DNA of 32,000 nucleotides, taken from NCBI RefSeq assembly GCF_000011465.1, contig NC_005072.1, positions 1,110,001 through 1,142,000 of the forward strand. The letters run 5' to 3'. The translations under genes were made by a program, and so were the position numbers. Below the pieces are notes generated by a model, which saw nothing but the letters and a program-made list of their open reading frames with translations, was not told the origin of the DNA and did no database searches. This DNA is from Prochlorococcus marinus subsp. pastoris str. CCMP1986. Its GTDB lineage: Bacteria > Cyanobacteriota > Cyanobacteriia > PCC-6307 > Cyanobiaceae. Each line of letters begins with the position of its first letter. The first letter of the stretch is position 1. Of this stretch, positions 2,581 through 7,144 are shown in pieces.

Positions 2581-4389
2581 TTAGTATAAAAAATTTAATT
2601 TAAAACCAATTCGATATTCGTTATCTTCAAGAATTTGTCCGATGTCCTGTATACCGACTGCATTGGAATAATATAAATCAATTGATTTTCCTGGTTTTAG
2701 AGAATACCTTAATGCTAATGAGGAATTAAAATCTGAATCATTTTTAAATGAAGTATTTATTTCAGGGATAAGTTGCAAATTATCAAATAAATTTATGTAA
2801 CTTGAAAGTCCTAACCCCCCAAAACTGTCCACACCACTAAAAAAATATTTAGGACTTAAATTAAAGGCTAACTTATCATTTAAGCTAAAAGTATTTATCA
2901 ATTCACTGAATAGGTAACCTTGATTAGTATCATCATTTCTTCCAACCGATGTCCTAACTGTCATCCAAAAAAGGTCATCTTTTTGAGGGCTAAATATTAA
3001 TAATTTCCCTCCTAATCTGTAATTAAGATTATTTTCACTTAAGTAAGTTGAATATAAAGTTGAAATATTATTATCATTAAAACGACCAATATTGAGAAAC
3101 TCTAGTTGAAATATATTTGACAACGAATAACCATAAAATCCAAACAAATTTCCCTTAGAGTCATAATTAAGATTAATTTGTGAAGTTCCAGCTTTAGGTA
3201 TCAGTGCATTATTAACTGTAATTCCGCCATAACTAATCAATTTCTCTCTATCATTTAAGGGTTCAAGAAGAGTATCTTCTCCATATGGTTTATATATAAG
3301 ATTTGCAGAATAAAGTGGCTTATTATCTGAGGGAATAGTAAGTAATCCTGTAGATGGAGTCGAACCGTATGAGTTCGATAATTTACCTTCAATTCCAATC
3401 TTAGGATTGATATCCCATCCCAACCCTATACTATATATTGGTTTTCTAGAGTACTTCAGTTCACTATCAAAATAATTATTGCCAGGGCCTAATGGAGTTG
3501 TATATGAGAAAAGAAGATCAACATCTTCAGCAATATCTAAAACAAAGCCACTTCCAACATAAAAATTATTTTCATAAGCATTTTTACCAATTCCTTTTGA
3601 GCCTAGTTTCTCAGGTAAAAAAGTGATTCCAGGAACTATTACAACTGCCAATTTATCATTAAAATTTTTCGAAAAGGGTAAAGAAAAAGCTCCAATTATA
3701 TTTTCAAATTTATCTTTACCATATGAATTATTCTCTTGATTATATATACTTTTTGTATTTTCAGATCCACTAGCTTGCCTCCAATATTCAAGAGTAGATA
3801 CCATTGATAGACCCAAGATATTTTCATTCTCTTCTAATAATTTTTTCTTAAATGAAAAAGCATAATTTTGCCAATGATAATTACTTAGTTGTCCATCAAT
3901 TAAGTTGTATAAATTATCATCCGCTTCAGAAAAATAAATTGAGATAAGGGAAGAATTTGAGAGCCCATAATCAAAAACAAATGATGGATTTTGTTGCCCA
4001 GTACCACCAGATACACCCCCATCAAAAGATGATTTCCATCTAACTGAAGTTTGAAAATCTCCATAGTCAAGAAAATTGTTAAGAGGTAAATATGGTTCAA
4101 TTTCAAGAATAGAAGGATTTGATTTTAGTTTAGAATTATAAATATTTTCATCTCTATAATTCTCAGTTTTTTTTACTTTAGAACTTTCCTCATTATTATT
4201 TTGAAAATAACTTTTATCATCCTTATAGTATTTCCAAATAATCTTTTTCAAATCATTTGAATTTTTTTCTTGTATTTTTTCCCATTTAATCTTTTTTGTT
4301 TCAGACGATTCTTTTGTATATTTATCTGCTAAGACACTAACGAAATTTAATAATTGACTAAATATAAATAAATAAAATACCAACCTCAT
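2581..4389 (-). CDS. Putative outer-membrane beta-barrel protein (porin-like), family not recognised
   Basis: 602 aa. N-terminal signal-peptide-like MRLVFYLFIFSQLLNFVSVLA is followed by a ~100-aa K/E/N-rich region. The rest is a long G/S/N/Y-rich region with alternating hydrophobic pattern and a C-terminal aromatic end (KLNFLY). Confidence 0.55.
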   Translation of the reverse strand: MRLVFYLFIFSQLLNFVSVLADKYTKESSETKKIKWEKIQEKNSNDLKKIIWKYYKDDKSYFQNNNEESSKVKKTENYRDENIYNSKLKSNPSILEIEPYLPLNNFLDYGDFQTSVRWKSSFDGGVSGGTGQQNPSFVFDYGLSNSSLISIYFSEADDNLYNLIDGQLSNYHWQNYAFSFKKKLLEENENILGLSMVSTLEYWRQASGSENTKSIYNQENNSYGKDKFENIIGAFSLPFSKNFNDKLAVVIVPGITFLPEKLGSKGIGKNAYENNFYVGSGFVLDIAEDVDLLFSYTTPLGPGNNYFDSELKYSRKPIYSIGLGWDINPKIGIEGKLSNSYGSTPSTGLLTIPSDNKPLYSANLIYKPYGEDTLLEPLNDREKLISYGGITVNNALIPKAGTSQINLNYDSKGNLFGFYGYSLSNIFQLEFLNIGRFNDNNISTLYSTYLSENNLNYRLGGKLLIFSPQKDDLFWMTVRTSVGRNDDTNQGYLFSELINTFSLNDKLAFNLSPKYFFSGVDSFGGLGLSSYINLFDNLQLIPEINTSFKNDSDFNSSLALRYSLKPGKSIDLYYSNAVGIQDIGQILEDNEYRIGFKLNFLY

Positions 4390-4686
4390 TTAAAAAATTC
4401 TTTAATTTATCTAATTAACTTTTCAATAATACTACTAGGAAGACAGTTTTCAATTCTATAAGATAATAATAGGAATGAAAAAAGAGTATTGGACAACTAA
4501 TGGAGAAGGAATGTAATCATTATAATGATGGATTAGATCCATCAGAAGAATATTTAAGAAAGAAGAAAAAAGGTAATGATGATGATACCTATTTCCCTCC
4601 AGAAGAATCAGAATCGCCACATTATTAAGAGCGTAAGAAAATTTATTGACAGGTTCTTTAAAATTAAAAAAAATCAAAATTTAAAT

Positions 4687-5091
4687 ATGACTGAACAAAG
4701 GAAAATAGAGAAATTTGGAGTCGGGAATTTATACCCTGACATTCATCCACCAGAGTTTTCATTCTTTAAAGAAAAATGTATAGATGTAGCACTTGGATAT
4801 GATGATGGTTTTACTTTCACTCCTAAATTTGGGAATTTTAAAGAAACTGAAGATATTTTTGATTACCTAAAACAATATCTTGAAGATAAAGAATTAGAAA
4901 AATTAGATATTCGTTTTGATACTTTAAAAACTTGTATATACCAAATAAATCCTGAGACATTAGAACTTGGAGAATTATTGGAATGTGAAGGAAGTGATGT
5001 TGAATATTTTGAATGGAATAAAAAAACTAAAAGTATTGATGAGGTTGATTCAAATTCACTAAGTGATGAAGAAGAAGAATATTTTCACTAA
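4687..5091 (+). CDS. Acidic hypothetical protein, first gene of the islet cassette; C-terminus possibly truncated by a 1-nt frame shift
   Basis: The ORF track opens at 4576, but the first 37 codons read like AT-rich non-coding translation, so I prefer the ATG at 4687 (MTEQRKIEKFGV...). The protein is strongly acidic (D/E-rich tail SDEEEEYFH). No family recognised. See findings for the duplication and frame shift at 5056-5153. Confidence 0.5.
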   Translation: MTEQRKIEKFGVGNLYPDIHPPEFSFFKEKCIDVALGYDDGFTFTPKFGNFKETEDIFDYLKQYLEDKELEKLDIRFDTLKTCIYQINPETLELGELLECEGSDVEYFEWNKKTKSIDEVDSNSLSDEEEEYFH

Positions 5092-5113
5092 GTGATGATA
5101 ATTCATATTTTCC
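5056..5113 (+). repeat. Imperfect tandem duplication with 29-nt period at the 3' end of the acidic islet gene
   Basis: TCACTAAGTGATGA occurs at 5056-5069 and again at 5085-5098. Both copies continue to a TATTTT element. They encode SLSDEEEEYF (gene frame) and SLSDDNSYFP (shifted frame). Confidence 0.8.
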
Positions 5114-5149
5114 TTCAGAAGAAATAGAGCAAGTTGAGGCACTATCGAA

Positions 5150-5353
5150 ATGAATAAAGAACATAATTATGTAGGATTGTTATTAAATTACATTGTTTTG
5201 AAGGAAGAGATGGAAGTGATCTTTTATTTACATAATCCCTATCCAGATTGCTTAAAAATCCCAGATATACTGAAACAAAGGTTTCCTAGTGATTACAAAA
5301 GCATAGTTGTAAATTCTTTGGATAATTTCAAAAAGTATGGAGCAAAACGTTGA
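5150..5353 (+). CDS. Hypothetical 67-aa protein (islet cassette gene 2)
   Basis: ATG start. The ORF is open for 67 codons in AT-rich DNA. Its stop (TGA 5351-5353) overlaps the TTG start of the next ORF. No family recognised. Confidence 0.45.
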   Translation: MNKEHNYVGLLLNYIVLKEEMEVIFYLHNPYPDCLKIPDILKQRFPSDYKSIVVNSLDNFKKYGAKR

Positions 5354-5532
5354 GCACTAAATGGGATAACACTTCATGGCAGAAAGAGTTCTTGAATATG
5401 AAGTCACATTCGCCATCAGATGCAAAACTCTTAATAGGAGGTGTAAAAGGATTTAAAGATGCTTGGCGTTTAGGTGTTCTACATGTGGAATACGAAAGAT
5501 TGAAGAAAATACAAGAGCAGCAGCAACAATGA
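5350..5532 (+). CDS. Hypothetical 60-aa protein (islet cassette gene 3)
   Basis: TTG start in a TTGA overlap with the preceding stop; an alternative ATG lies at 5398. The TTG start is supported because the W-x-KE-F-L motif shared with the next ORF lies upstream of that ATG. Ends in a poly-Q tail (QEQQQQ). Confidence 0.4.
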   Translation: MSTKWDNTSWQKEFLNMKSHSPSDAKLLIGGVKGFKDAWRLGVLHVEYERLKKIQEQQQQ

Positions 5533-5684
5533 AAGAAAAAATAGATTGGAAGAAAGAGTTATTAGAAAGTGGAAGATTCAACGATAAATTCTCTAGGAAT
5601 TTATTAGAAAACGGAGCAAAGAACTATATGCAAGAAATCTATATGGGATATATGTATAACAGGTGGAGGAAAATTAGAGATTGA
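5529..5684 (+). CDS. Hypothetical 51-aa protein (islet cassette gene 4), apparent paralogue of gene 3
   Basis: The ATG at 5529 forms an ATGA overlap with the stop of the previous ORF (5530-5532). The ORF track start at 5463 (TTG) would overlap the previous ORF by 70 nt. Sequence: MKEKIDWKKELLESG...RWRKIRD. Confidence 0.4.
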   Translation: MKEKIDWKKELLESGRFNDKFSRNLLENGAKNYMQEIYMGYMYNRWRKIRD

Positions 5685-5690
5685 ATATCT

Positions 5691-5958
5691 ACCACACCTC
5701 CAAAAGTAGTCCAACACATCATTCTTTCCTTCAATAGATTAAGTTGGTGTCATCTGAATCGAACCCAAATCGTAATGGTATTTCGTTCCACCATATAGGG
5801 AATTTTATACCACACAATTTTAAAGGTAAACCACATTTATCCACCACATTTTATTGCTAGTTATAGTGTTAATTTCAAATTAGCAATATAAACTTTTAAA
5901 TCTATAATTAATCAACCATCCTTTATTAGCATGCATTTTGGAGGATTAATTACCACAA
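5691..5958. repeat. Cluster of five exact ACCACA hexamers (plus one ACCATA) in non-coding DNA next to tRNA-Ser
   Basis: Exact ACCACA at 5691, 5809, 5830, 5843 and 5953, and ACCATA at 5790. The central three share the extended context ACCACAYWTTT. Confidence 0.7.
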
Positions 5959-5986
5959 CAAAAGGTATAAGAATCTAAAAATTAAC

Positions 5987-6071
5987 GGAGAGGGTGGGAT
6001 TCGAACCCACGAACAGTCTCCCGTTAAACGATTTCGAATCGTTCGCTTTCGACCACTCAGCCACCTCTCCA
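5987..6071 (-). tRNA. tRNA-Ser (anticodon CGA)
   Basis: The reverse complement folds as a cloverleaf. Acceptor stem is GGAGAGG/CCUCUCC with discriminator G. Anticodon stem is AACGA/UCGUU with loop UUCGAAA (anticodon CGA). There is a long variable arm, a T stem GUGGG/CCCAC with loop UUCGAAU, and no encoded CCA. Confidence 0.93.
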
Positions 6072-6121
6072 TAAATAAATAATATATAAAATTTATAAAT
6101 TCGTTTTTTTATATCTTCTAA

Positions 6122-7144
6122 TTAATTCCAACCTACTTCTTTCATTATTTCTATTGCCTTACTATTGAATTTCCCAAGTTCTTTTATAGTCACATTATCT
6201 GGAGTGAAATCTCCAAATTTACTAACAATTCTATTTTGGCTTGATTCCTTCAAGGGGTGCTCATAAGTTTTATTAGCTAAACCTTGACTACCTTCACTAG
6301 AAGCTAAATATTCAAGTAGTTTAATAGCCTCAGTCTTGTTTTCTGCATATTTATATACGCCCCCAGCAGTGATATTTACATGAGCAGGATTTGGTATTAT
6401 TAATTTTATTTTTTCTGCTAAAGAGGCATCTCTTGGACCTTTAACGCCATCAAGCATCCTTGCGACATAATAATGATTAACGATTCCAATACCGCACGTT
6501 CCCAGCCCTACAGCTCTTATTAATGAAGAATCTCCAGAAAAATAGGGAGTGGAGACATTTGATATCAAACCCTTAAGCCAAATTTTTGTTTGACCAACAC
6601 CTTTCTTTGCTATTTGATTAGAAACCAAAGATTGATTATAAGGACTTTTTCTATTTCTTAGACATACTTTTCCTTTAAAAGAAGGATTGGTTAGATCCTC
6701 AAAATTTTTGATTTTTGTAATATCCACAATATCCGGATTTGAGATGATTACCCTTAATCTCCTAGTAAGGCCAAACCATTTATTTCTAGGATCTCTCAAA
6801 TTGTTTGGAACGCTATTTTCTAGAAAATTTGAATTAATTTTTTGAAATAAATTTGCCTTTGATGCATTTTCAATTATTGCTGCATCAACAAGAATTACTA
6901 AATCAGCCTGAGAATTTTTACCCTCTCTTTTTAAGCGCTCAATTATAGCTTTTCCATCTGTTTCTATATATCTAACTTTGATGCCAGTTTGTTCTTGAAA
7001 TTTTTGATAAACCTCTTTATCTGTATTGTAATGCCTTCCTGAATAGACCTTCACTTCTTTTTCAGTCGAATTAACAGGTATATTTGTATTAAACAAGAAA
7101 GTAAGAGTTAAAGCTGAATAAAAAAGTCTTTTTAGTTTTTGCAC
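6122..7144 (-). CDS. idiA: Periplasmic Fe(III)-binding protein of an ABC transporter (IdiA/FutA/AfuA family)
   Basis: 340 aa. Signal peptide, then KVYSGRHYNTDKEVYQKFQEQTGIKVRY..., typical of FutA/IdiA iron-binding proteins. Confidence 0.88.
   Translation of the reverse strand: MQKLKRLFYSALTLTFLFNTNIPVNSTEKEVKVYSGRHYNTDKEVYQKFQEQTGIKVRYIETDGKAIIERLKREGKNSQADLVILVDAAIIENASKANLFQKINSNFLENSVPNNLRDPRNKWFGLTRRLRVIISNPDIVDITKIKNFEDLTNPSFKGKVCLRNRKSPYNQSLVSNQIAKKGVGQTKIWLKGLISNVSTPYFSGDSSLIRAVGLGTCGIGIVNHYYVARMLDGVKGPRDASLAEKIKLIIPNPAHVNITAGGVYKYAENKTEAIKLLEYLASSEGSQGLANKTYEHPLKESSQNRIVSKFGDFTPDNVTIKELGKFNSKAIEIMKEVGWN

What the first reader, a model, noticed from the sequence alone, without database searches (positions are those of the whole stretch)
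4390..5986. Islet abutting tRNA-Ser(CGA): a compact cassette of unrecognisable small proteins chained by stop/start overlaps
The 1.6 kb between the outer-membrane-protein gene and the 3' end of tRNA-Ser(CGA) is the only part of the window that does not read as core cyanobacterial genome. It holds four short + strand ORFs at 4687-5091, 5150-5353, 5350-5532 and 5529-5684. Consecutive genes overlap as TTGA (5350-5353) and ATGA (5529-5532). A third ATGA link (5150-5153) appears if the 1-nt frame shift at ~5085 is undone. That degree of translational coupling argues for one functional unit rather than random ORFs. I recognise no product: one strongly acidic 134-aa protein, one 67-aa protein, and two paralogous 50-60-aa basic/aromatic proteins. 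A 300-nt repeat-rich non-coding arm follows. In Prochlorococcus, 3' ends of tRNA genes are established hotspots for horizontally acquired, often phage-derived material. Acidic small proteins in such places can be DNA mimics, anti-restriction factors or immunity proteins, but applying that to this cassette is pure speculation.
Basis: partly seen in the sequence, partly recalled or inferred. Interest (0 to 1): 0.7.

Follow-up and report, generated by a model that had tools for sequence, protein, structure and literature searches.

The report
Phage-derived small-gene cassette at tRNA-Ser islet
The region is a known hypervariable "islet" of Prochlorococcus MED4 beside a tRNA-Ser gene; it carries four real, transcribed small genes of phage ancestry plus the scars of repeated DNA insertions, and what the genes do is still unknown.

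Summary
The window is Prochlorococcus MED4, genome positions 1,110,001-1,142,000. All ORF coordinates, the TTGA and ATGA overlaps and tRNA-Ser(CGA) are confirmed. The proposed frameshift in ORF A is not supported.

The segment is already labelled "genomic islet 5". ORF A is PMM1163 and ORF D is PMED4_13271. Published dRNA-seq places + strand TSSs at window 4472, 5277 and 5437, so this is not one simple polycistron.

All four genes are under purifying selection. A-B-C-D recurs as a block with the same spacing in at least five other genomes and at two different chromosomal sites. A also occurs alone or with other partners, and C-D or D occur without A.

C and D are diverged paralogs. Both are homologous to a small ORF conserved in at least 88 T4-like cyanomyophage records just upstream of uvsY. 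C-D fusions exist.

A is acidic (pI 4.3). Its confident predicted beta-rich fold has no Foldseek match, and it has relatives in viral contigs.

The 300-nt arm is an att-site scar. It has strand-specific CCAC repeats and a decayed copy of the tRNA 3' end. In relatives the tRNA's last 10 nt recur 18 times, always downstream and on the same strand. The same islet elsewhere holds restriction-modification systems.

Verdict: a phage-derived accessory cassette in a tRNA-seeded islet, a new member of a known kind. Biochemical function is unresolved.

The parts
2581..4389 (-). Outer-membrane-protein-like gene (602 aa); distal, also variable part of the islet
   Evidence: Absent in L038, internally deleted in L035/L036, fragmentary or at varying distance in L001-L033
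4440..4472 (+). Promoter-like site (AAGACA-16-GATAAT, 4440-4467) and published primary TSS at 4472 (genome 1114472) for PMM1163
   Evidence: Consensus scan. TSSAR tables of Read et al. 2017: '107 nt upstream of gene PMM1163'. The block shared with L038 starts at 4447
4500..4628 (+). PMM1967 (42 aa, acidic): a recurrent 'junction' sequence or small ORF found next to att arms and cassette borders
   Evidence: CAP16472. 11 copies align at 82% identity, with in-frame indels in two copies, but three copies are broken (1-nt deletions or no ATG). Copies lie beside tRNA-proximal arms in L005, after D in L041/L005/L016, and inverted in L040
4590..4607 (+). Junction motif TAYTTYCCTYCAGAAGAA, copy 1 (inside PMM1967)
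   Evidence: Two copies in the window against 0.03 expected
4687..5091 (+). ORF A = PMM1163 (annotated from about 4579; true start 4687): 134-aa acidic protein with an acidic tail
   Evidence: 62 homologs. Conserved start and stop. dN/dS 0.08-0.68, mostly below 0.4. Small family, 28 representatives in 1.84 billion. AF2 pLDDT 84, beta-rich. No Foldseek match. Relatives in viral contigs
5106..5123 (+). Junction motif, copy 2, in the A-B spacer (the supposed 'frameshifted tail')
5150..5353 (+). ORF B (CAP16473): 67-aa basic protein, found only in Prochlorococcus and marine metagenomes
   Evidence: 229 clusters, length conserved at 67 aa. dN/dS 0.16-0.73 in 14 of 15 pairs and 1.02 in the closest pair. 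No phage or family hit
5277..5277 (+). Published internal ('orphan') TSS inside B, 73 nt before the C start
   Evidence: Read et al. 2017, Suppl. Tables 9-11
5350..5532 (+). ORF C (CAP16474): 60-aa basic protein, homolog of the cyanomyophage ORF upstream of uvsY
   Evidence: phrog_16908 at 3.7e-6. tblastn hits to S-SSM4 and P-SSM3. hhalign probability 98%, E=1.6e-13. dN/dS 0.11-0.68
5437..5437 (+). Published internal TSS inside C, 92 nt before the D start; seen in all four conditions
   Evidence: Read et al. 2017, Suppl. Tables 8-11. Agrees with the array transcript 5464-5769 of Steglich et al. 2008
5529..5684 (+). ORF D (PMED4_13271 / CAP16475): 51 aa, a truncated form of a 76-aa protein that is a full-length homolog of the phage ORF
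   Evidence: dN/dS 0.05-0.26
5685..5751 (+). Remnant of an older att arm (CCACACC, CCAACACATC) ending in a decayed att core (TTAAGTTGGTGTC, about 5738-5751)
   Evidence: Alignment with L003 (ACGGAGAGGGTGTC) and L038 (TTAAGAGGGTGTC)
5746..5984 (+). About 240-nt att arm with strand-specific CCAC[AC] repeats, bounded by the decayed core and the tRNA 3' end
   Evidence: 78-82% identical arms abut the tRNA in L003 and L022, and abut a displaced tRNA-end copy in L038. Repeat density is the window maximum
5985..6071 (-). tRNA-Ser(CGA); its 3' end is the integration core
   Evidence: ARAGORN and Rfam. 18 extra same-strand downstream copies of its last 10 nt in 14 of 33 related loci, none upstream or on the other strand

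Best explanation
The segment is the tRNA-proximal part of MED4's 'genomic islet 5', a small hypervariable region built by repeated site-specific insertion at the 3' end of tRNA-Ser(CGA) and reshuffled by recombination at a recurrent junction sequence (PMM1967-like).

It has two layers. Next to the tRNA is a ~240-nt att-arm scar. Behind that lies an older module, PMM1967-A-B-C-D.

A to D are genuine, selected, transcribed protein genes of phage ancestry. C and D are duplicated, diverged copies of a small basic protein that almost all T4-like cyanomyophages encode just upstream of uvsY. They probably act together as a pair. A belongs to a small family of acidic-tailed beta-rich proteins that is also found in arrays of small genes on uncultured viral contigs.

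Inferred, not shown: the cassette is accessory cargo that acts in phage-host or mobile-element conflict. The most likely version is that the host-encoded C/D pair imitates or interferes with the phage protein's role during infection, with A as an acidic binding partner or inhibitor.

Shown: anatomy, mobility, selection, transcription, homologies. Inferred: the direction (defence or exploitation) and the molecular targets.
For: Identity and literature:
- D = PMED4_13271 at genome 1115529..1115684, labelled 'genomic islet 5', with a transcript at 1115464..1115769.
- PMM1163 has a primary TSS at 1114472, and there are internal TSSs at 1115277 and 1115437.

Hypervariability:
- In 33 idiA-anchored loci the tRNA-to-cbiA distance ranges from 1.1 to 9 kb with different cargo.

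att evidence:
- ACCCTCTCCG occurs 18 times downstream on the same strand in 14 of 33 loci, and 0 times upstream or on the other strand in about 600 kb.
- The arms share one architecture: junction motif, CCAC-type repeats, then the AACGGAGAGGGTG core.
- L038 carries cassette + arm + a 12-nt tRNA end + an inserted methyltransferase + the intact tRNA.

Mobility:
- The cassette is 87-91% identical in L038, L040 and L041, against flanks of 71-79% in L041.
- A second locus (L040) lies beside PD-(D/E)XK, T5orf172 and SRA-HNH genes.

Real genes:
- dN/dS is mostly 0.05-0.5 and lengths are conserved.
- Start/stop overlaps are conserved.

Phage ancestry:
- C and D both hit PHROGs.
- The related phage ORF is present in 88 phage records.
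- The long form of D hits the same phage locus.
- hhalign supports both relationships.
- The A family is in IMG/VR contigs next to a DNA methyltransferase, sharing [phrog_685 46-aa]-[X]-[A] synteny with marine contigs.
- The GIY-YIG gene after A in type-2 loci is phrog_5356.

Pairing of C and D:
- Fusions P0348, P0350 and P0351 exist.

Conflict context:
- Type I R-M (L005) and IceA-like endonuclease + C5 methyltransferase (L033) occupy the same islet in other strains.
Against: - No biochemical function is demonstrated. No Pfam, NCBIfam, PADLOC or PDB match exists for any of the four proteins.
- No integrase was found at this tRNA in the window or in the 33 loci, so integration is inferred only from scars.
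- tRNA-Ser(CGA) is not among the seven island tRNAs listed in the tycheposon preprint, which lists Ser(tga).
- In the window itself the second att core is decayed rather than exact.
- A and B have no homolog in cultured phages.
- The defence-island context is guilt by association.
- MED4's D is truncated relative to the common 76-aa form.
- PMM1163 does not appear in the 'top 50% expression' tables of Read et al..
Confidence: 0.6

Rival explanations
1. Establishment or anti-restriction module of a mobile element. A is an acidic DNA-mimic-like inhibitor of host nucleases, and B-D are small accessory factors. They are encoded at the att-proximal end so that they are expressed on entry into a new cell.
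For: A has pI 4.3, net charge -19 and an acidic tail. The viral A homolog lies two small genes downstream of a DNA methyltransferase. A neighbours nucleases (GIY-YIG, PD-(D/E)XK) in type-2 loci and in L040. R-M systems occupy the same islet elsewhere. The cassette abuts the att arm.
Against: There is no sequence or fold similarity to Ocr, ArdA or any PADLOC/Pfam family. The predicted fold is beta-rich. The PD-(D/E)XK gene belongs to a 1,497-member cluster and may simply be a neighbouring common gene. Adjacency is to both sides of it, which is consistent with mere position.
Confidence: 0.15
2. C and D are recombination-directionality or arm-binding factors (excisionase-like) for an integrase that targets tRNA-Ser(CGA). 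They would bind the CCAC-type repeats of the arm.
For: They are small, basic proteins. D is the last gene before the junction motif, arm and att core in the window, L038, L041, L005 and L016. The arm repeats are strand-specific and dense.
Against: Their closest relatives are in at least 88 T4-like cyanomyophage records, none of which was seen to carry an integration module. The family has about 3,950 clusters. No integrase is nearby. There is no Xis or HTH Pfam hit. The D-arm linkage reduces to two ancestral configurations, so it may be simple inheritance.
Confidence: 0.1
3. Toxin-antitoxin or addiction module that stabilises the islet, with acidic A as antitoxin and basic B/C/D as toxin(s).
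For: The pattern is acidic plus small basic proteins, overlapping genes and an island location.
Against: There are no TA family hits. C-D or D occur without A (L016, L005), and A occurs without B-D (L035, L050, type-2 loci). The C/D-related ORF has no A relative in the phage collection.
Confidence: 0.07
4. Decaying, functionless relics of past insertions: ORFs kept only by recency.
For: MED4's D is truncated. D is interrupted in L034. PMM1967 is broken in 3 of 11 copies. The att core is decayed.
Against: dN/dS is well below 1 across pairs with dS up to 1.3. Lengths and overlaps are conserved. There are three mapped TSSs and an array-detected transcript. Metagenomic clusters are very large: the C cluster has 6,970 members.
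Confidence: 0.05

Closest known systems
Prochlorococcus tRNA-seeded genomic islands, and the tycheposon accretion model (Hackl et al., bioRxiv 10.1101/2020.12.28.424599)
   Same: The region sits at the 3' end of a full-length tRNA. Partial tRNA copies separate successive insertions. Variability is highest next to the tRNA. The cargo includes defence and surface genes.
   Different: The tRNA is Ser(CGA), which is not one of the seven listed (the preprint lists Ser(tga)). The islet is only 1-9 kb. No integrase, replication module or other tycheposon hallmark gene was found at this site.
MED4 'genomic islet 5' / PMED4_13271 (Steglich et al. 2008, PMC2518516, Tables S2, S5, S6)
   Same: It is the same locus. 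ORF D is the published new small ORF with an array-detected transcript.
   Different: The paper lists it only as a hypothetical ORF. It does not report the phage homology of C/D, the block structure, the att scars or the second locus. Its three 'phage-related' new ORFs are other genes.
Conserved small cyanomyophage ORF upstream of uvsY (phrog_16908 / phrog_869; overlaps the 3' half of T4-GC 410)
   Same: C and D share the W-x2-E-x-L ... LL-x2-G-x-K ... motif pattern. The 76-aa form of D matches the phage ORF end to end.
   Different: The host has two tandem, overlapping, diverged copies. C lacks the C-terminal segment and MED4's D is truncated. The host genes sit in an islet, not next to recombination genes. 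The function of the phage protein is itself unknown.
Acidic DNA-mimic anti-restriction proteins (Ocr, ArdA)
   Same: Strong negative charge and an association with mobile DNA and with R-M or nuclease neighbourhoods.
   Different: There is no sequence or structural similarity. The predicted fold is beta-rich with one helix.
Type II toxin-antitoxin modules
   Same: Small, overlapping genes for acidic and basic proteins within a mobile region.
   Different: There are no family hits, and the components occur independently of each other.

Membership tests
tRNA-seeded genomic island/islet (accretion by site-specific integration) | Abuts the 3' end of a full-length tRNA gene | tested here: met
   tRNA-Ser(CGA) is at 5985-6071 (-) and the cassette lies on its 3' side
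tRNA-seeded genomic island/islet (accretion by site-specific integration) | Gene content differs between related strains while the flanks are conserved | tested here: met
   In 33 loci glyQ-idiA-tRNA is conserved but the downstream content and length (1.1-9 kb) vary
tRNA-seeded genomic island/islet (accretion by site-specific integration) | Direct partial copies of the tRNA 3' end inside the island | tested here: met
   18 same-strand downstream copies in 14 of 33 loci, none elsewhere. In the window itself only a decayed copy remains, at about 5738-5751
Tycheposon (Hackl et al.) | Element-encoded tyrosine (or large serine) recombinase | tested here: not met
   No integrase-sized ORF with a recombinase domain was found in the window's islet or among the variable ORFs of the 33 loci that were scanned
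Tycheposon (Hackl et al.) | Integration at one of the seven described tRNA/tmRNA genes | tested here: not met
   The preprint lists Pro(tgg), Ser(tga), Ala(ggc), Thr(ggt), Arg(tct), Met(cat) and tmRNA. The tRNA here is Ser(cga)
Tycheposon (Hackl et al.) | Replication module (primase/helicase/polymerase) | tested here: not met
   None in the window's islet
Cyanomyophage uvsY-upstream small ORF family (phrog_16908/phrog_869) | Significant profile match over most of the protein | tested here: met
   C 3.7e-6 and D 3.8e-5 against phrog_16908. hhalign C E=1.6e-13 and D E=1.6e-5. The 76-aa D form against P-TIM68 gives 2e-10
Cyanomyophage uvsY-upstream small ORF family (phrog_16908/phrog_869) | Genomic position between gp3 and uvsY in a T4-like phage | tested here: not met
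   The host copies lie in a chromosomal islet
Single operon by translational coupling | Stop/start overlaps conserved in orthologs | tested here: met
   The B/C and C/D overlaps are conserved in L034, L038, L040 and L041. The A-B spacer is 58 nt
Single operon by translational coupling | One transcript from one promoter | tested here: not met
   Published TSSs lie at 4472, 5277 and 5437. The array detected only the D region
DNA-mimic anti-restriction proteins (Ocr/ArdA) | Sequence or fold similarity to a known mimic | tested here: not met
DNA-mimic anti-restriction proteins (Ocr/ArdA) | Inhibition of restriction enzymes | not testable with these tools
   Needs biochemistry
Type II toxin-antitoxin | Match to known toxin or antitoxin families, and obligate co-occurrence | tested here: not met
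   No hits. The components occur separately

The most novel reading that the evidence does not exclude
The tandem C/D pair is a host-domesticated decoy, or dominant-negative copy, of a near-universal cyanomyophage protein that is mis-annotated in several deposited phage genomes and sits beside uvsY. Together with acidic protein A it would form a new small anti-phage (or phage-exploited) module that moves between defence-type islets. In parallel, tRNA-Ser(CGA) would be an eighth, previously unlisted integration hotspot with its own CCAC-repeat arm type.
Probability: 0.15. Interest if true: 0.7.

Novelty: new member of a known kind. Interest (0 to 1): 0.42.

Why it matters
Prochlorococcus islands are where most of its flexible, phage-related biology resides, and nearly all of their small genes are uncharacterised. 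This case gives several concrete handles:
- a conserved, transcribed four-gene block;
- two host genes traceable to one specific, near-universal cyanomyophage ORF next to the recombination mediator gene uvsY;
- natural C-D fusions that point to a two-part protein;
- a clear set of att scars at a tRNA that the tycheposon preprint does not list among its island seeds.

If the C/D pair modulates infection, it would link a phage core-region protein of unknown role to a host counterpart. If it does not, the locus remains a tidy example of how small islets accrete and shuffle cargo.

Tried and rejected
- Frameshift in A: rejected. The stop and tail are identical in all 8 orthologs of the close clade.
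- Compositional anomaly: none. GC is 0.24-0.35, like the flanks.
- Rfam on 4300-6200: only the tRNA.
- Pfam, NCBIfam and PADLOC on A-D: nothing significant.
- PDB profile searches for the A and C/D families: nothing.
- First AF2 run on A with a shallow alignment: pLDDT 40, unusable. A second run with distant homologs gave pLDDT 84.
- blastn of the islet against phages: no match.
- Single-protein scans of viral contigs with A, B and C: no relatives.
- tblastn of A, B and the distant A relative P0249 against cultured phages: nothing.
- Scan of viral contigs with the tRNA 3' end to find attP-bearing elements: unspecific hits from unrelated viruses, a dead end.
- Idea that the N-terminal domain of phage T4-GC 410 is a third C/D-like domain: rejected by hhalign.
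- Idea that A and C/D come from one phage region: no C/D-like ORF on the viral contigs that carry A.
- Literature searches for PMM1967, PMM1162-1166 and PMED4_13241-13271 in main texts: nothing useful.
Full report
**Identity of the window.** Exact look-ups show that the small ORFs are those of Prochlorococcus marinus MED4 (CCMP1986). ORF 4500-4628 is PMM1967 (CAP16472). ORF B is CAP16473 and ORF C is CAP16474. ORF D (5529-5684) matches PMED4_13271 / CAP16475.1, published at genome 1115529..1115684. The window is therefore MED4 positions 1,110,001-1,142,000. A published TSS table places PMM1163 107 nt downstream of 1114472, which makes ORF A equal to PMM1163, annotated from an upstream ATG. The supplementary tables of Steglich et al. 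2008 label the locus 'genomic islet 5'.

**Observation check.** The four ORFs, the TTGA and ATGA overlaps and tRNA-Ser(CGA) at 5985-6071 (-) are all present as described. A is acidic (pI 4.3, net charge -19). B, C and D are basic. The arm at 5685-5984 carries 7 CCAC[AC] motifs, all on the + strand, and is the densest 300-nt stretch in the window.

The proposed 1-nt frameshift near 5085 is not supported. The tail ...EEEEYFH and the stop codon are identical in the 8 close orthologs. The sequence that follows is a second, degenerate copy of a junction motif also present inside PMM1967 (TAYTTYCCTYCAGAAGAA at 4590 and 5106; 0.03 expected by chance). GC content does not differ from the flanks.

**Are these real genes?** All four are under purifying selection.
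- Pairwise dN/dS is 0.08-0.68 for A (mostly below 0.4) and 0.16-0.73 for B, with one very close pair at 1.0.
- It is 0.11-0.68 for C and 0.05-0.26 for D, with dS up to 1.3.
- Lengths are conserved. B is 67 aa in nearly all of the 120 listed clusters, out of 229 found.
- The B/C and C/D overlaps are retained in orthologs; C starts with ATG in most.

Transcription is documented.
- Steglich et al. detected a transcript at window 5464-5769 on arrays.
- The dRNA-seq TSS tables of Read et al. 2017 list + strand TSSs at 4472, 5277 and 5437.
- TSS 4472 is the primary TSS for PMM1163 and lies 5 nt after a GATAAT -10 box found.
- TSS 5277 lies inside B, 73 nt before the C start.
- TSS 5437 lies inside C, 92 nt before the D start, and was seen in all four conditions.
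- The cassette is therefore expressed, but from nested promoters rather than as one simple polycistron.

PMM1967 is less secure. Its 11 copies are 82% identical, and two of them carry in-frame indels, which suggests coding. Three copies are broken by 1-nt deletions or lack an ATG.

**Is it an islet?** Using idiA as an anchor I retrieved 33 loci from related Prochlorococcus genomes. glyQ-idiA-tRNA-Ser is conserved, but what follows differs almost everywhere. The distance from the tRNA to the next core gene (cbiA) ranges from 1.1 to 9 kb.

Cargo found in this position in other strains:
- a complete type I restriction-modification system (L005);
- a helicase with an IceA-like endonuclease and a C5 methyltransferase (L033);
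- 2OG-Fe(II) oxygenases;
- a polysaccharide lyase;
- a TPR protein;
- sugar and surface-modification enzymes.

No integrase was found. Only 2 of the 33 loci hold pieces of the cassette: C-D in L016, and PMM1967 plus D in L005.

**Integration scars.** The last 10 nt of the tRNA (ACCCTCTCCG) recur 18 times in 14 of the 33 loci. Every copy is downstream of the tRNA and on the same strand. There are none upstream or on the opposite strand in about 600 kb.

Aligning the regions that precede these copies reveals a common architecture: a PMM1967-like 3' motif, then CCAC-type repeats (CCACCACAT, tandem CCACCAACACAT, or CCCCACACTACA), then about 100 nt, then the core AACGGAGAGGGTG.

The window's arm (5746-5984) is 78-82% identical to arms that abut the tRNA in L003 and L022. 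Its far end carries a decayed core. The sequence is intact in L003 (ACGGAGAGGGTGTC), partly decayed in L038 (TTAAGAGGGTGTC), and further decayed in the window (TTAAGTTGGTGTC at about 5738-5751).

In L038 the order is cassette, arm, a 12-nt tRNA end, an inserted methyltransferase gene, and then the intact tRNA. This is what serial insertion at the tRNA predicts. It matches the accretion model of the tycheposon preprint, which however lists Ser(tga), not Ser(cga), among its seven island tRNAs.

**The cassette as a mobile block.** PMM1967-A-B-C-D occurs with the same spacing in five further places:
- L038/L039 and L041 (same locus);
- L048 (same locus, D not detected);
- L034 (beside the tRNA, idiA missing, polysaccharide-synthesis-type genes upstream);
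- L040, which is a different chromosomal site. There it lies after a response regulator, a DUF7326 gene and a Cas4-like PD-(D/E)XK gene, and is followed by T5orf172 and SRA-HNH genes.

In L041 the cassette is 90.7% identical to MED4 while the flanks are 71-79%.

The block can also be split.
- A with PMM1967 stands alone in L035/L036, and A alone in L050.
- In a second clade (58-67% identity) A sits after two divergently oriented small genes. It is followed either by a GIY-YIG protein (phrog_5356) plus the PD-(D/E)XK gene, or by other genes.
- A 210-aa metagenomic protein (P0055) joins the first ~70 residues of A to an unrelated C-terminal part with a D..(D/E)xK-like motif, possibly from a PD-(D/E)XK neighbour; this part was not scanned.
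- PMM1967-like copies mark borders: next to the tRNA after the R-M operon in L005, as fragments after D in L041, L005 and L016, and as an inverted copy in L040.
- I infer that this sequence serves as a patch of homology for cassette shuffling.

**What the proteins are: C and D.**
- Both hit phrog_16908 and phrog_869.
- By tblastn, C matches S-SSM4, S-SSM6b and P-SSM3.
- The P-SSM3 ORF finds 88 cyanomyophage records.
- The common 76-aa form of D matches the same phage locus, for example P-TIM68 at 2e-10.
- hhalign of the phage ORF gives C probability 98% (E=1.6e-13) and D probability 79% (E=1.6e-5). C against D directly gives E=7.7e-4.
- The family has about 3,950 clusters at 90% identity, all small proteins, and none of the 120 listed carries a Pfam domain.
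- Natural C-D fusions of 136, 138 and 114 aa with different junctions, and a C/D chimera, exist. The fusions argue that the two act together.
- MED4's D (51 aa) lacks the conserved C-terminal segment.

**What the proteins are: A.**
- A belongs to a very small family: 28 representatives at E<=1e-3 among 1.84 billion.
- All members carry acidic tails.
- With distant members added to the alignment, AF2 gave pLDDT 84 and pTM 0.74. The model has about nine strands, one helix and a disordered tail.
- Foldseek found nothing in the PDB or BFVD.
- Relatives at 41% identity lie on IMG/VR viral contigs, in an array of small overlapping genes after a DNA methyltransferase.
- The order [46-aa phrog_685]-[X]-[A] is shared between that viral contig and marine contigs L053 and L058.

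**What the proteins are: B.** B has no relatives outside Prochlorococcus-type sequences.

**How it most likely works.**

Shown:
- the region is a tRNA-seeded islet built from layered insertions;
- the cassette is a mobile, selected, transcribed block;
- C and D derive from a specific cyanomyophage gene, and A from phage-type gene arrays.

Inferred: the proteins act in phage-host or mobile-element conflict. The support is their phage ancestry, the restriction-type cargo at both loci, and their position at the att-proximal end. My preferred version is that C/D form a pair that imitates or interferes with the phage protein encoded next to uvsY, with A as an acidic partner or inhibitor. I give this specific version roughly one chance in three.

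Rivals:
- Anti-restriction or establishment module (0.15).
- Excisionase-like arm binders (0.10). This is weakened because the family is near-universal in T4-like cyanomyophages, in which no integration module was seen.
- Toxin-antitoxin (0.07). This is weakened because the components occur independently of each other.
- Inert relics (0.05). This is contradicted by selection and transcription.

**Comparison and novelty.** The locus is already known as a MED4 islet, and D as an expressed small ORF. The kind of locus is well described: tRNA-anchored islands with phage-related cargo.

New here:
- the block structure and the second locus;
- the homology of C/D to the phage ORF;
- the C-D fusions;
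- the A family with its predicted fold and viral relatives;
- the att-arm anatomy at a tRNA that is not on the published list.

I rate it a new member of a known kind, of moderate interest. Function remains the open question.

Noticed in passing
L042:2914-3219, L043:2986-3246, L065:2477-2737, L066:2474-2746 (phages S-SSM4, P-SSM3, P-SSM4, P-RSM4): The phage homolog of C/D is an ORF of 80-90 aa with its own ATG. It lies in the +1 frame over the 3' half of the annotated gene T4-GC 410, just upstream of uvsY. In the one pair compared by eye (P-SSM3 against P-RSM4) it is more conserved than the annotated frame (43/47 against 36/47 identical). The deposited annotations probably miss a real gene, or there is dual coding.
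   Followed up: partly
window 2581-4389; L035:5696-5794; L038: The 602-aa outer-membrane-protein gene is itself variable. It is absent in L038, reduced to a C-terminal fragment in L035/L036 and fragmentary in L011, L020, L027 and L041.
   Followed up: partly
L035 (GCA_003211315.1): The segment from tRNA-Ser to DUF1824 (idiA, glyQ) is inverted relative to MED4. PMM1967 and A are left next to the ferredoxin-like gene, and B-D are missing.
   Followed up: no
L005:11497-17271 and L033:11166-17091: The same islet holds a complete type I R-M system (HsdR/S/M) in one strain. In another it holds a helicase, an IceA-like endonuclease and a C5 cytosine methyltransferase. In L005 a partial tRNA-Ser copy lies beyond the system; in L033 one of the two copies lies inside the segment.
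   Followed up: partly
L040:10768-10911 (-): An inverted PMM1967-like copy forms a 47-aa ORF that overlaps by 8 nt the stop of a 524-aa gene of unknown function. Together with the direct copy at 6350-6475 it brackets the cassette plus the T5orf172 and SRA-HNH genes.
   Followed up: no
P0255 (5,152-aa metagenomic protein): A giant protein with nine stretches that match profile positions 16-57 of the A family (the YPD..PPEF..FTFTP region). It suggests that this half of A is a repeat-capable module.
   Followed up: no
L038, L041, L035 against L001-L033: idiA comes in two very different forms, about 94% and 65-69% amino-acid identity to MED4, while neighbouring glyQ stays near 90% in L001-L033. 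idiA itself may be subject to allelic replacement next to the islet.
   Followed up: no
window 5880-5908 (+): A strong promoter-like site (TTAGCA-17-TATAAT) inside the arm points into the tRNA antisense strand. No TSS was listed there in the tables consulted.
   Followed up: no
L034:6843-6863: In this genome D carries an early stop (MKEDIN*), and C has lost its stop and reads on to 74 aa. This is an example of local decay of the C/D junction.
   Followed up: partly
L044:7155-7298 (-) and L044:1342-1770 (+): One unannotated contig of many small ORFs (origin not established) encodes both a distant A relative and a relative (39% identity) of the 57-aa protein that replaces D in L040.
   Followed up: no
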